Source: the human T2T-CHM13v2.0 reference genome, Homo sapiens
Assembly: GCF_009914755.1 (NCBI RefSeq)
Contig: NC_060925.1
Direction: 5' to 3' (one strand)
Length of the DNA stretch: 64,000 nt
Below the pieces are notes generated by a model that saw nothing but the letters and a program-made list of their open reading frames with translations, ran no database searches and was not told the origin of the DNA. Made by a program: the position numbers and the translations under genes. This document shows positions 41,456-46,545 of the stretch, piece after piece (positions within the stretch are counted from its first letter, which is position 1; every line of letters starts with the position of its first letter).

Positions 41456-42267
41456 TTCCTTTTGGTATTTTTACTGGAAAATGTAAGTGTCATAGAATAA
41501 GAGAATGCTGATACAACTTCATGATGTTGATTAGTCCTATCTAAGAATGCGATATGCCTTTCCATTTACTCAAGTCATCTTTTGGGTTCCTCAGCAGCAT
41601 TTTAGGGTTTTTAAAAAATATTTTGTATACTCCTAGGCATTTTATCTTTCTCATCATCTGTTCTTCCAACATATGCCCCAACTGGTTGCCACTGTAAAAT
41701 ATGAAGGCCATTGATTTTTGCATACTAATTTTATAGCTGGTCACATCATTGAATTATCTTATTTTTGATAATAGTTTTTAGTTGATTCTCTTTGGTGTAC
41801 AAGGTATACAGTCATATCTTCTGCAATCAATAATTTTAATTTCCCTTCTCAATTTTTATATAGTTAAATTATTTTTTCTTACTTTATTGCAGCAGCTGGT
41901 ACCTACAGAACAAAGCAATGTAATAATGAAAATATTGGATGTCCCAGTCTTGTTCCTGACTTTAATGGGAATGCTTTTAGTATTTCCTCATTAGGAGTTA
42001 AGATGGATATATTTTATCATGCTAAGAAGTAGCTGTTCTTATTTCATAAGAGTTTAAAGAAATTAAGAATGATTGCTGATTTATGCAGATAATCTATGCT
42101 TAAATCCTCTAATATGGTAAATTAATAGATTTTCTGACACTAACCTCCTAGCATTTCTTAAACTCCACTTGACAGATATATTATTTTTTTTCTGCGCTGC
42201 CAGATTCTGTATGCTACTGTTTTACTTAGAGTTTTTGCAGTGAAATTTATAAGTGAGATTGTTCTTT

Positions 42268-42298
<31 letters not shown>

Positions 42299-42412
42299 AT
42301 ATGTATGTGTGTGTATGTATGCGTGTGTGTGTGCGTGTTTGTATGTGTGTATATATGTGTATGTGTGTGTATGTGTATGTGTGTGTGCATGTGTGTGTGT
42401 GTGTGCGCGCGC
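42268..42412. repeat. Compound (TG)n/(TATG)n microsatellite ending in (CG)n
   Basis: ~145 nt of near-perfect purine-pyrimidine alternation. Confidence 0.93.
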
Positions 42413-43782
42413 ATTCTTTCAGTTGGGTATTAGTATTAATGTTACACTAGCTTCATAAAAAATCTAGAAACTTTCCTTCTTTTTCTGTGCCCTGTAACAG
42501 TTTAAATAGCACTAGAGAGATCCATCCCTTAAAGATTTGGTTGAATTCCAGGGTGCCGACCTCAACCTGCTGCTGGTACCTGGGAAGTGGGTCTCGATGA
42601 CTCAGATAATTCTGTGACCTGTGCAGTTGGTCCAGCAGGACAGTTTCAGGGTGCTGACCAATTTCAGAGGTGCAGACTCCCAGGTCCTCTCTCCCACCAT
42701 CCTGGATCTCCATGCTGGGCGGGCCTACAAACATTCCAAATGAAAAGGGCACAGTGAAGCTGGGTGGGCAGACACAACCCAGGGCAAATAGGGCTGGATT
42801 TGGAGGAGAGCATTTCCTCGGGCTGGCCTTAGGTGTATGGTAGACTGCTGAGGTTGGGCTGGGCTCTGAGCACCCTTTACCTACCTTCCCTCTCTGGGTA
42901 GTTGGGTCTGCCCAACCCACCATCTACAATGGTAGCCTGCTGTTCTCTCTGTCTTTGGGTCTCCAGGTGGTCATGAGGCCTCTGCCTTTTCACGGTCATT
43001 TTACCATCTGCTGTGGCACTTTGTGACCAGTGACCAGCCACACGTGGGCAGCCTCCAATCATTTCTGTGTCTTGGCCAAGGATGCTTCTTGCCGACACTC
43101 CTAAACAGTACGTTATAAGCTGCAGGTACTTCTCCCCACCTCCTCCCCGCCCTCCCTGCTGCTCCCACCCCTTTAGGCCTGCTGGCACAGTTTAATTTCC
43201 AGCCCTGGTATTTCTTCCTAGCCCGTGACAACCTCAGGTGGAAGCAATTTCACCGTCTTGTAACTCACCAGGTCATTATAATTAGTATCCGGGCACCCAG
43301 GGCGAGGGTGGAAGGAAGGAAAGGAAGAGTTGATCCAGCCAGGCGGAGAGCAGCCTTTGTAGGGCTGGGGGCTGGGCACCACTTTCTCCAGCTCCAGCTT
43401 GTAACTCAGATTTTCTCAGGGCTCTGATTCCACCAGCACCCACCTCCCCTCTGTGTGTGTCGGGTGGGAATGGATGAGGAATCAGGACTCTCTGGCCTGA
43501 ATGAGGGACCCAAGAGCCTACACCTGAGGCTGGGGTGGGATAAGGGGCCCTGAAAGGAGAGGGCACAATACTTCCCACCTCCCCCTGCCCTAAAGGACCC
43601 AGTATTCCACCATGCCACCCCTCCCTGCCTCTGGGTCCTTCAGAACCAAAGCCTACCAGAACTGGTGATGGTGGCAGTGGGGTAGACATGGGTATAGCCC
43701 AAGGCACTGCCAAGAGTCTGTGTGACTCCCAGAGAAGCTCACAGGGTGAGGAAATATGACTTATCAGGCCACAAAATTTCTC

Positions 43783-44400
43783 ATGTTGGTGAGGGTTTTT
43801 TGATTGCAACAGAAATGGACATAAGCAAGAAAGAGGGTTTATGGTCAGGATGTTGGGCTGTTTGTCTCAAAGTTAAGAGGAGATCAACCAGCTTGGGAAG
43901 AGTCAGGACTGAGGTAGCCCCAAGGAACCCAGAAATAGAAAAGGGTGGGTCTTCAGCTTATGCAGCTAGTGGGAATCAGTTCCCATAACACCCAGTCTCT
44001 GCGTTTCCAAGTGAAAAGTTCAAATTCCTCATAGAGACCCATTTATTCATTCAATATTCATTGAACCCTCTGGGGCTGAGGGTCCATTTGACCAACTGCA
44101 GAGGTCACAGAATCAGTAGTGAGAATCAGTTCCCATAACCCTAAGTCTCTGTGTTTTCAAGTGAAAAGTTCCAAATTTCTCATAGAGACCCATTTATTCG
44201 TTCATTTGTTCATTAAATATTCATTGAGCCCCTACTGTGTGGTAGGCAGAATTCTGGGCACTAAGGATACAGCAGTGATCCAAGGAGACAAAAATACTTC
44301 TTTTGCATCCTACGTTGTAGTGGGGGCAGAATCTGATTGGCTCGGTTTGGGTTAGGTGTCCACCTCTAAGCCAGTTGGCTGTGGTCAGGTGGGGTTCATG
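43783..44400 (-). mobile_element. Old MLT1 (K/L-like) remnant with an L2 3' end at ~44190-44325
   Basis: GGGTTTTTTGATTGCAACAGAAA and AATCTGATTGGCTCGGTTTGGGTTAGGTG (MLT1 antisense); TTCATT..ATTGAGCCCCTACTGTG..GGATACAGCAGTGA (L2 antisense). Confidence 0.55.
43967..44231. repeat. ~100-bp direct duplication with a templated 48-nt spacer
   Basis: 43967-44068 vs 44117-44231; spacer matches 45589-45616 (+) and 42609-42632 (-). Confidence 0.92.
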
Positions 44401-45879
44401 ACCTGGGAGTGGATTCCACTACAATGATCAAATAGCTTTTTAAGACACAGATCAGCTCTTGATTGACACTGCAGAAAGCAGGCAGTGGGCTTCTGAGAAA
44501 CAAGGCATGGTTGAGTCCATTCAGTCACCGAGACAGCAAGCATTTGCTCTGGGCAGCCTGGGTGTTCCCCAGGAGCAGCTTGTTCATCCCGTGTACCTCA
44601 GGCTCTCTGGATCCTCCACTTCCAAGCAGGAGGAGTGGGGCTGGGGAAGGTCCTCCCACACCATCAGTTTTCTCCCTGCACCAGACCTGCCTCTCCAGGA
44701 CCTGTGGGAGAGGGTTGGACTTCTCCCCCTTCCGGTGTCCTCTGTACCTGCCCTGACTGGAAGGTTCCACAGACAGGGATCAGGCTTGCTCTTTCTGCTG
44801 TCCGCCACGGCAAGAGCCAGCCCAGGGGCAGTCGTGGTGAGGGTTGTGACGTGTCTGTTCCCCACACTCCATCTCTGACCATCCCATACCCCTAGGGACC
44901 CAATCTGTTTAGTTCACTGGCCCTCCCCTGATTCTGCAGCTCAGAAAGGAGGCTCACAGGTCCTTTGCTCCCCCTTCTCTTCCAAACCCTGGGTTTTCCT
45001 GCCTGAGCCTTGGGAGCCTTGGCTTAGCTGTGCCTGGTTTCAGCAGAAAGTGCCTGGGATGGCTGTGTGGACTCTCCAGGAAATTCCCGAATCAATCACT
45101 GGGGGCTTCCCACTTCAGACCCAGTCTGTAAGGTCCAGGGCCACCAACCCTCCTGGTCTGGAGCCTTGTAAGGGGACCGTTGATAACAATACCATTATTC
45201 TCCTTAGCTGGGGGCAGGCTGAACCCTCACTGAAGCAGGCTTGCCATTAGAACCCTGCAGAAACAAAGTAATAGCCTGCACAGAAAGCCATTTGTAATGT
45301 TGCTATAATTCCCATGATTCATTAAACAGGAATGGAAAATGATAACATTTCCCCTGGAAAAAAACTCCTCCTGGAGTCGCATGCTGGGTTCGCTTGGCTC
45401 AACTATTTTATTGACTAAGCATCTTGTTGTGCTGATGTGAAGAGCACACAGGCCCAGCACCATCTAGTTTTACATTCCCTGAAATGGAAACAGGGGAGGG
45501 GGTCCTGCCAGGGCCTGGAATTGACCTTGGAAATGGAACCTCTACACTGTTTGGGTGGCCATCTGGTATCACCTGCAGGCCTGGACTTTCTGGGGCCGAG
45601 GGTCCATTTGACCAACGCCCCTTCAGCATCCTCTCCTCCAGGAGGGGTGCAGCATGGGAGGGTTGGGTCTGCCTGTGTCAGAGCTCTAAGCTGGCATTGC
45701 TCAGCCCCGTGGGATGCCTGCCTTGGGAAATGCCATGCAGTTTCCCAGCCATCCTACACACGTGACCTGTGATGCCCAACGGCTCCCTCATCTCCTCCTT
45801 TTCCTTTAAATGGTCTCAGACCACCAGGCCCTCCAGAGTCCCCGACAGAGAGGCCTCTGACACCCAGCTTGCTTCTGGC

Positions 45880-46545
45880 TCCTCTTCTCCCTCCGCTACT
45901 GCTGCCCTAGTTGAGGCCTTACCATCTCCTGCCCACCCAGCCATGCCATGCTCTGCTACTCAGCTGCTGTCCCCAGTCTCCCCAGTGAGGCCTCTATACA
46001 GTGGCCAGAGCGATTGTTCTAAAAAGCAAATATGACCATGTTTACCATCTTGCTTAGAAGCTTGGCGGGCTCCCCACTCTCCCATGGGCTCTATCCAGAA
46101 TGCATTGTGTGGCATTCAGGTTTGTTTCCAAATTGGCCTCAGTTGACCTTTCCAGCATTATCTCCAGCCACTTCCCACCCTTGCCCCACCATGCTCTCCA
46201 GGCTTTAGCAAGCCCTCATGGTCACATGGGGCCCCCAGGCCACATCATATGTGTTCGGGCCTTTTCTTTGCTATTCCCTCAGCCTAAAATGCTCTTGCCT
46301 TCCTTCGTTTCTTGGGAAATCCTGGCTTCCTCCTGGAACAAGCTGCTCCTGTAACTTTCCCATCACAGTTAATGGTGCTGCTCCCTTCTGGTTGTTCAGC
46401 TCCAAACCTTGGTGTCATCCCTTTCTCCTTTCTCTCAGCCTCTGGGTCCCTGTGTCTGACCTGTCACCAAATCCTGCTGGCTCTAACTTCTAAAGATAGC
46501 AAGACTGTGACTGTTTCCCAGCACCAACTTCCTGGGGCGTGCCTG
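45880..46545 (+). mobile_element. L2 fragments
   Basis: GCCAGAGCGAT..CTAAAAAGCAAATATGACCATG; AAACCTTGGTGTCATCC..CACCAAATCCTG. Confidence 0.7.

What the first reader, a model, noticed from the sequence alone, without database searches (positions are those of the whole stretch)
43967..44231. Multi-jump template-switch scar: duplication spacer built from two distant donors on opposite strands
Seen: 43967-44068 is repeated at 44117-44231 (~90% by hand, plus an indel). The 48-nt spacer is a mosaic. 44069-44096 (TCTGGGGCTGAGGGTCCATTTGACCAAC) matches 45589-45616 on the + strand at 27/28. 44090-44113 (GACCAACTGCAGAGGTCACAGAAT) matches the reverse complement of 42609-42632 at 23/24. The two donors overlap in the spacer by exactly GACCAAC (7 nt), and the path re-enters the duplicated unit around a repeated AGAATCAGT. 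Both donors are ~1.5 kb away, one on each side. Knowledge: serial microhomology-mediated jumps are the signature of FoSTeS/MMBIR and of Pol-theta templated insertions. Inference: an old germline repair event with a fully readable polymerase itinerary, which repeat annotation would not show.
Basis: partly seen in the sequence, partly recalled or inferred. Interest (0 to 1): 0.8.

Follow-up and report, generated by a model that had tools for sequence, protein, structure and literature searches.

The report
Old repair scar with copied patches
A 100-base stretch of non-coding human DNA was duplicated long ago and the gap between the two copies was filled with two short pieces copied from about 1.5 kb away on either side, a clear but ordinary example of sloppy DNA break repair.

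Summary
The unit 43967-44068 recurs at 44117-44231, with 93 of 102 aligned bases identical and indels of 1 and 12 nt. The 48-nt filler holds a 28-mer that matches 45589-45616 (+) at 27/28 and a 24-mer that matches the reverse complement of 42609-42632 at 23/24. The two overlap by exactly GACCAAC.

In the 3.1-Gb genome each half has only one other copy, the local donor, and both donors lie in single-copy DNA. Identity in the flanks of the matches is at chance level.

A retrocopy-like paralogue on chromosome 12 has one unit and no filler. It is more diverged from either copy than the copies are from each other, so the duplication plus filler is derived.

Best reading (0.8): one germline break-repair event with several template switches. 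I favour end joining of the polymerase-theta type acting on an over-extended end; MMBIR/FoSTeS is the close rival.

The event is roughly 20-70 Myr old, by a rough clock. Only the 7-nt junction shows clear microhomology, and the re-entry junction can be read in two ways. Orthologues could not be reached.

This is a new member of a known kind and of modest interest. The unusual feature is the distance to the templates, 1.4-1.5 kb.

The parts
43967..44068 (+). Unit copy 1 of the tandem duplication (102 nt). Relative to the chr12 outgroup it carries 2 derived substitutions, a 1-nt deletion and a 12-nt deletion.
44069..44096 (+). Filler patch A, 28 nt: a direct copy of 45589-45616 at 27/28. The one difference is TG in the filler against CG in the donor, a CpG site.
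44090..44096 (+). GACCAAC, the 7-nt microhomology shared by both donors. This is the point where synthesis switched from donor A to donor B.
44090..44113 (+). Filler patch B, 24 nt (17 nt beyond the overlap): an inverted copy of 42609-42632 at 23/24.
44114..44116 (+). CAG, of ambiguous origin. It is either a mini-patch (GAAT|CAGT copied from 43973-43980 of the unit, then re-primed on the T at 43967) or the CAG(C) that precedes copy 1 at 43963-43966 with one C lost.
   Evidence: inference
44117..44231 (+). Unit copy 2 (115 nt). It keeps the 12-nt stretch that chr12 also has, and carries 5 derived substitutions.
45589..45616 (+). Donor A, in single-copy DNA 1476 nt to the right of the filler.
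42609..42632 (-). Donor B, in single-copy DNA 1437 nt to the left of the filler, used in inverted orientation.
43441..44830 (+). Segment with exactly one other copy in the genome, on chr12 (retrocopy-like, 70-80% identical, 133/150 at 44171-44320). It provides the outgroup state: one unit and no filler.
44186..44297 (.). Old dispersed repeat fragment (32 hits elsewhere in the genome at 73-89% identity). It overlaps only the last ~45 nt of the unit, so the unit boundaries are not repeat boundaries. From recall, not from a call, it resembles the 3' end of LINE-2 in antisense.

Best explanation
This is the scar of one germline DNA break-repair event with several template switches.

Ancestral state: pre-unit, one unit, post-unit, as in the chr12 fossil copy.

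Proposed itinerary of a 3' end of the + strand:
1. It was extended through the unit to 44068.
2. It came loose and primed with 0-1 nt of pairing 1.5 kb to the right, where it copied 28 nt in direct orientation (45589-45616).
3. It came loose again. Its last 7 nt, GACCAAC, paired with the + strand 1.4 kb to the left, and it copied 17 more nt in inverted orientation (42625 down to 42609).
4. It was then joined to the start of the unit, either directly or after one more 4-nt abortive round.

The product is unit, 48-nt filler, unit.

Pathway. I favour (about 0.45) end joining of the polymerase-theta type acting on a failed synthesis-dependent strand-annealing intermediate. In that model the over-extension makes the duplication and repeated abortive priming makes the patchwork filler. 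The geometry fits: after 5'-to-3' resection, a left-hand 3' end can copy the right flank only in direct orientation (from the other end's tail) and the left flank only in inverted orientation (by folding back on its own tail). That is what is seen. A replicative MMBIR/FoSTeS route (about 0.35) gives the same product.

Shown: the patches, their unique donors, the 7-nt overlap, and the derived state relative to chr12.
Inferred: that it was one event, the order of steps, the direction of copying at the donors, and the enzyme.

The scar lies in intergenic DNA, and no function is proposed.
For: Patches and uniqueness.
- The patches are real and far beyond chance.
- Genome-wide, each half has only one other copy, the local one.
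- The donor regions 42430-43440 and 44830-46000 have no other genomic copy, apart from a ~100-nt old repeat at 42447-42549 that does not cover donor B.
- Identity in the 40-nt flanks of both matches is at chance level: 13/40, 5/40, 10/40 and 12/40. These are sharp-edged patches, not decayed repeats or conversion tracts.
- The overlap is exactly 7 nt, with mismatches on both sides.

Derived state.
- The chr12 paralogue aligns to 43441-44065 and to 44120-44827 with one and the same stretch (L002 1581-1678) serving both copies. It therefore has one unit and no filler.
- Copy 1 against copy 2 is 93/102 identical. Copy 1 against chr12 is 86/106 and copy 2 against chr12 is 92/119.
- Filler against donors has 2 mismatches in 45 nt. 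That is improbable if the filler were as old as the chr1/chr12 split (P=0.003 at 20% divergence).
- Derived changes lie in both copies (copy 1: 2 substitutions and 2 indels; copy 2: 5 substitutions; 2 ambiguous), as expected for old, independent decay.

One event.
- Unit divergence (9/102) and filler divergence (2/45) are compatible with a single date (Fisher P=0.50).

Precedent, from passages read.
- Tandem duplications of ~100 bp to 10 kb with microhomology and templated insertions at the junction, made by theta-mediated joining of failed SDSA intermediates (PMC8654963, section 12).
- Patchwork insertions from repeated priming (PMC8654963; PMC12426944, section 6).
- Human germline templated insertions built from 3 or more templates in both orientations: 33 of 103 and 26 of 99 events were complex (PMC8421209, section 10).
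Against: - No orthologue was examined. That the donors are ancestral and the filler is the copy rests on parsimony (one event against two) and on one CpG site (CG in the donor, TG in the filler).
- Only one of the three or four junctions has clear microhomology. The first has 0-1 nt.
- The templates lie 1.4-1.5 kb away. The papers read describe templates in the 'immediate vicinity' of the junction or within 100 bp, although the 100 bp is a limit of that detector (PMC7368036; PMC8421209).
- At 28 and 24 nt, the patches are at or above the usual size of under 25 bp for theta insertions (PMC12426944, section 6).
- Unit divergence (8.8%) is nominally twice the filler divergence (4.4%), so a two-step history is not excluded.
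- The chr12 outgroup is a paralogue and shares no sequence with the donor sites.
Confidence: 0.8

Rival explanations
1. The product is the same but the pathway differs: replicative FoSTeS/MMBIR. A nascent strand at a stalled or collapsed fork jumped ahead by 1.5 kb, then back by 3 kb onto the opposite strand, then forward to the unit start, and re-replicated the unit.
For: There are at least three switches in cis, a copy-number gain, one 7-nt microhomology and templates at kb range. Passages in PMC5120786 call iterative template switches a signature of FoSTeS/MMBIR. PMC8421209 ascribes germline insertions with several templates to an MMBIR-like process. A possible further inverted patch 2.2 kb downstream would fit unstable synthesis running rightwards.
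Against: Nothing in the sequence separates this from end joining. The direct patch from 1.5 kb ahead needs single-stranded template in DNA that has not yet been replicated. The segments are very short (24-28 nt), which is more typical of theta-type insertions (PMC12426944, section 6).
Confidence: 0.35
2. Two separate events: an older clean tandem duplication, and a later break exactly at its junction that received the 48-nt patchwork.
For: Unit divergence of 9/102 is nominally higher than filler divergence of 2/45.
Against: The difference is not significant (P=0.50). The second break would have to fall exactly at the junction.
Confidence: 0.07
3. A single contiguous 45-nt donor was copied in one jump. 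A later inversion of about 3 kb (42633-45616), with a 7-nt staggered break inside that donor, split it into the two present 'donors' on opposite strands.
For: GACCAAC at 45610-45616 and its complement at 42626-42632 are placed as the inverted duplications of a staggered-break inversion would be. This is read directly.
Against: An inversion breakpoint would have to hit a given 45-nt target by coincidence. Insertions from several templates are common (PMC8421209; PMC8654963). The chr12 copy lies wholly inside the supposed inversion and cannot test it.
Confidence: 0.04
4. Reverse direction: the filler is the original sequence, and the stretches at 42609 and 45589 are two separate copies of it.
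For: Direction at the donors was not tested with an outgroup.
Against: It needs two insertions from one 45-nt source. The chr12 fossil lacks the filler. The CpG site is intact in donor A and decayed in the filler.
Confidence: 0.03
5. Dispersed repeat family, gene conversion between old repeat copies, or chance.
For: The last ~45 nt of the unit and 44186-44297 do belong to an old dispersed repeat.
Against: The filler halves and both donors have no other genomic copies. Flank identity is at chance level. None of 100 shuffles reached 2 matches.
Confidence: 0.01

Closest known systems
Tandem duplications with templated or patchwork insertions made by polymerase-theta-mediated end joining of failed SDSA intermediates (C. 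elegans helq-1 and brc-1 work: PMC8654963, passages and section 12 read; PMC7368036, passages read; review PMC12426944, passages read)
   Same: A short head-to-tail duplication (the reported range starts at ~100 bp). The junction filler is made of several stretches identical to flanking sequence. Microhomology is used for priming. Direct and inverted templates fit copying from the other end and fold-back copying.
   Different: The templates here are 1.4-1.5 kb from the junction rather than in its immediate vicinity. The patches are 24-28 nt, against the usual size of under 25. This is an ancient fixed event in a primate lineage with a normal genotype as far as is known. Dependence on the enzyme cannot be tested.
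MMBIR/FoSTeS templated insertions, including complex germline MMB-TI events in human genomes (PMC8421209, passages and section 10 part 1 read; PMC5120786, passages read)
   Same: Several templates in forward and reverse orientation within one insertion, microhomology at junctions, and germline origin without any larger rearrangement.
   Different: The published detector looks only for inverted templates within 100 bp, so it would miss this event. Here the insertion sits at the junction of a 100-nt duplication.
Short-range template-switch mutations of the four-point model in human and great-ape genomes (PMC5453318, PMC7954356, 10.1101/2021.11.26.470150: search listing and start of abstracts only)
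   Same: A transient switch of the polymerase to a nearby template produces an inverted copy that ordinary alignment reads as a cluster of changes.
   Different: As I recall it, that model has one excursion to a nearby template and back, giving one inverted patch. Here there is a direct patch, an inverted patch and a duplication, with templates at kb range.

Membership tests
Theta-mediated end-joining scar (templated or patchwork insertion) | The insertion sits at a repair junction (a deletion or a tandem duplication) | tested here: met
   The 48-nt filler lies exactly between the two unit copies, and the chr12 outgroup has one unit and no filler.
Theta-mediated end-joining scar (templated or patchwork insertion) | The inserted stretches are identical to sequence flanking the junction | tested here: inconclusive
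   The matches are 27/28 and 23/24 to unique local templates. They lie 1.4-1.5 kb away, outside the 'immediate vicinity' described in PMC7368036.
Theta-mediated end-joining scar (templated or patchwork insertion) | Priming by minimal base pairing or microhomology at the switches | tested here: met
   7 nt at the A-to-B switch, 0-1 nt at the first junction, and 1-4 nt at re-entry depending on the reading.
Theta-mediated end-joining scar (templated or patchwork insertion) | Dependence on polymerase theta | not testable with these tools
   This is an ancient fixed event.
FoSTeS/MMBIR complex rearrangement | Two or more template switches in cis within one event | tested here: inconclusive
   Three or four switches are readable. 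That they belong to one event is inferred from the shared junction and from compatible divergence (P=0.50).
FoSTeS/MMBIR complex rearrangement | Copy-number gain with microhomology at the breakpoint junctions | tested here: met
   A ~102-nt duplication and a 7-nt microhomology at one junction.
FoSTeS/MMBIR complex rearrangement | Origin in replication or break-induced replication | not testable with these tools
   Sequence alone does not separate this from end joining.
Short-range template-switch mutation (four-point model) | A single excursion to a nearby template that yields one inverted patch (the definition is recalled; only abstracts were seen) | tested here: not met
   There are two patches, one direct and one inverted, plus a duplication, with templates 1.4-1.5 kb away.
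   At up to 3 mismatches the 45-mer is unique and the 28-mer has 2 sites. The 24-mer has 2 sites at up to 2 mismatches, plus 6 scattered sites with exactly 3 mismatches against 1 for the control. The donor regions are single copy.

The most novel reading that the evidence does not exclude
The two filler patches and a third isolated patch are traces of one episode of unstable repair synthesis that ran rightwards over at least 2.3 kb. The third patch is 16 nt, perfect and inverted: 46336-46351 copied from 44570-44585. On its own strand it is followed by a repeat of its first 6 nt, CAGGAG. Each time the polymerase took its template 1.4-1.75 kb away. That distance might record the length of single-stranded DNA at the break, either the resected tails or the trailing new strand. 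Patchworks at kb range like this one would be invisible to current detectors, which look within about 100 bp, and could therefore be an under-counted class of germline mutation.
Probability: 0.12. Interest if true: 0.5.

Novelty: new member of a known kind. Interest (0 to 1): 0.3.

Why it matters
As a single locus it matters little. It lies in a gene-poor stretch, with no gene within 19 kb according to the hub's table, and nothing suggests a function.

Its value is as a clean worked example. An ancient fixed human sequence can still show the order of template switches in a repair event. A retrocopy elsewhere in the same genome can serve as a dated fossil of the state before the event. The templates were 1.4-1.5 kb away on both sides, beyond the search radius of the detector I read about (100 bp, PMC8421209). 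If such events are common, the share of germline insertions attributed to templated repair is underestimated.

Tried and rejected
- Tandem Repeats Finder did not report the duplication. It gave only an 8-nt period at 44196-44214.
- An Rfam scan of 42000-46500 gave four matches, all below their gathering scores: mir-297 twice on the (TG)n tract, a HOXA11-AS piece and a CRISPR repeat model. No RNA family is involved.
- Gene conversion between old repeat copies was rejected, because the flanks of both matches are at chance identity.
- I considered that chr12 once had two units and lost one unit plus the filler by recombination or splicing. GT..AG blocks of 151 nt in register do exist (5 found), and the pattern of shared states along the unit would tolerate a crossover. 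I rejected this on divergence. The copies are closer to each other (93/102) than to chr12 (86/106 and 92/119), and the filler is too like its donors (P=0.003).
- I looked for donor counterparts in the chr12 locus. There are none, because the paralogy ends at about 43441 and 44830.
- No collection held here contains other mammalian genomes, so the orthologue test was not run.
- I did not search the literature or supplements for this particular locus.

Full report
**1. The observation**

- The unit 43967-44068 recurs at 44117-44231. BLAST gives 87% over 101 columns. A MAFFT alignment gives 93 identical of 102 aligned unit columns, with copy 1 lacking 1 nt and 12 nt.
- Between the copies lie 48 nt (44069-44116).
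- 44069-44096 equals 45589-45616 on the same strand at 27/28.
- 44090-44113 equals the reverse complement of 42609-42632 at 23/24.
- The two matches share exactly GACCAAC (44090-44096). The bases on both sides of this heptamer differ between the donors, so the overlap is 7 nt, no more and no less.
- AGAATCAGT stands at 44109-44117 and again at 44122-44130.

**2. Chance and repeats**

- In 100 dinucleotide-preserving shuffles of the window, neither half reached two matches at up to 3 mismatches.
- The whole assembly of 3.1 Gb could be searched.
  - The 45-nt core of the filler is unique at up to 3 mismatches.
  - The 28-mer has two sites, the filler and 45589.
  - The 24-mer has the filler (0 mismatches), 42609 on the minus strand (1 mismatch) and six scattered sites with exactly 3 mismatches, against one for the reversed control pattern. 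By my own estimate about one such 3-mismatch hit is expected by chance. Six is more than that, but none is closer than 3 mismatches.
- The 1-kb regions that hold the donors have no other copy in the genome. The exception is a ~100-nt old repeat at 42447-42549, which does not cover donor B.
- Outside the matched stretches, the 40-nt flanks are identical at 13/40, 5/40, 10/40 and 12/40, which is chance level.
- In 39-49 kb the only matches of at least 20/22 other than Alu pieces and the (TG)n tract are the unit and the two donors.

Conversion between old repeat copies is also unlikely.

**3. An outgroup inside the same genome**

- The sequence around the unit (43441 to about 44830) has exactly one other copy, on chromosome 12. 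It is 70-80% identical, rising to 133/150 at 44171-44320.
- In that copy one and the same stretch (L002 1581-1678) aligns to both unit copies, and the filler is absent.
- The chr12 copy ends in a run of 24 A followed by (TA)n, just where the homology stops. It is flanked by a 172-nt direct repeat (137/172 identical) that abuts its start.
- I read it as a retrocopy with a long target-site duplication. That makes it a fossil of an RNA once made from the + strand of this locus.
- The duplication is younger than that fossil.
  - The two copies are more alike (93/102) than either is to chr12 (86/106 and 92/119).
  - Two mismatches in the 45 filler positions would be improbable at the chr1/chr12 level of divergence (P=0.003 at 20%).
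- This also disposes of the idea that chr12 lost a unit and the filler by recombination or splicing. Blocks in register with GT..AG ends do exist, but the divergence argument stands.

**4. One event, and its age**

- With chr12 as the polariser, copy 1 has 2 derived substitutions and both indels, copy 2 has 5 derived substitutions, and 2 sites are ambiguous. Both copies have decayed, as expected for an old duplication.
- Unit divergence (9/102) and filler divergence (2/45) do not differ significantly (Fisher P=0.50).
- Pooled, 11 differences in 147 sites give K=0.079.
- With a recalled long-term primate rate of 1e-9 per site per year this is about 39 Myr, with a Poisson range of 19-67. With 0.5e-9 it doubles.
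- The one difference in patch A is CG in the donor against TG in the filler. This is the common direction of CpG decay and fits the donor being the source.

**5. Mechanism**

The simplest itinerary for a + strand 3' end is as follows.
1. Synthesis through the unit to 44068.
2. A switch with 0-1 nt of pairing to 45589, copying 28 nt.
3. A switch on GACCAAC to the opposite strand at 42632, copying 17 further nt down to 42609.
4. A return to the start of the unit.

The return junction has two readings.
- GAAT pairs with GAAT of the unit (43973-43976), four more bases (CAGT) are copied, and the end re-primes on the T at 43967.
- Alternatively the duplication starts at CAGC (43963) and one C was lost.

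The geometry is informative. This part is inference from the known polarity of end resection.
- A left-hand 3' tail can copy the right flank only in direct orientation, from the other end's tail.
- It can copy the left flank only in inverted orientation, by folding back on itself.
- A right-hand tail would give the opposite pattern.
- The observed pattern, right donor direct and left donor inverted, fits the left-hand tail.

This matches the published model in which an end that was extended during synthesis-dependent strand annealing fails to anneal and is joined by polymerase theta.
- The model gives tandem duplications of ~100 bp to 10 kb with microhomology and occasional templated insertions (PMC8654963, section 12 read).
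- Repeated abortive priming gives patchwork fillers (PMC8654963, passages; PMC12426944, section 6 passages).

A replicative MMBIR/FoSTeS route gives the same product, and I cannot tell the two apart.
- Passages in PMC5120786 treat iterative switching as its signature.
- PMC8421209 (section 10 part 1 read) reports human germline insertions from three or more templates in both orientations. Such complex events were 33 of 103 and 26 of 99 in two people.

**6. What argues for caution**

- Orthologues were not available.
- Only one junction has convincing microhomology.
- The templates are 1.4-1.5 kb away (1437 and 1476 nt). This is further than the 'immediate vicinity' of PMC7368036 or the 100-bp radius of the detector in PMC8421209.
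- The patches are at the upper end of the usual size (PMC12426944).
- A two-step history is not excluded, nor is a single 45-nt donor later split by a 3-kb inversion with a 7-nt staggered break. Both need a coincidence of position.

**7. Comparison and verdict**

The scar works like the known tandem-duplication-plus-templated-insertion products of error-prone break repair. I file it as a new member of that kind, without assigning the enzyme. It does not fit the single-excursion short-range template-switch model, and it is not a dispersed repeat. Its interest is modest. It is a neat, datable example with unusually distant templates, in DNA with no sign of function.

**8. A loose end**

The only other isolated exact match of 16 nt or more within 5 kb in non-repeat DNA of the whole window lies close by.
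- 46336-46351 is the perfect inverted copy of 44570-44585.
- On its own strand it reads CAGGAG-CAGCTTGTTC-CAGGAG, the form expected of a small templated insertion primed on 6 nt.
- chr12 has a diverged version at the 44570 site, so that site is the older one.
- Whether this patch belongs to the same event is open.

Noticed in passing
L002 (G000:C12:10688010-10691187, minus strand); window 43441-44850: The only other genomic copy of window 43441-~44830 looks like a retrocopy. It ends in A24 followed by (TA)n and is flanked by a 172-nt direct repeat (137/172 identical) that abuts its start. The flanking repeat looks like LINE-1 sequence, from recall only. This implies that the + strand of this unannotated stretch of the window was once transcribed.
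   Followed up: partly
window 44570-44585 and 46336-46351: A perfect 16-nt inverted match 1.75 kb apart. At 46351..46330 on the minus strand the patch is followed by a repeat of its first 6 nt (CAGGAG). It may be a second small inverted templated insertion near the finding, and it is the only other isolated patch of 16 nt or more in non-repeat DNA of the window.
   Followed up: partly
window 44171-44320: This block is 133/150 identical between chr1 and the chr12 copy, against 70-80% in the rest of the 1.4-kb paralogy. It overlaps the old dispersed repeat at 44186-44297. The cause is unknown: constraint, conversion or chance.
   Followed up: no
window 44186-44297: An old dispersed repeat fragment with 32 hits on other parts of the genome at 73-89% identity. 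It is not in the hub's list of masked stretches of 100 nt or more. From recall it resembles the antisense 3' end of LINE-2.
   Followed up: partly
window 42268-42405: An impure (TG)n microsatellite about 200 nt from donor B. It gives two weak mir-297 matches far below the gathering score.
   Followed up: no
window 42447-42549: A short old repeat with copies on chr3 and chr12 (75-79% identity), 60 nt upstream of donor B and not overlapping it.
   Followed up: no
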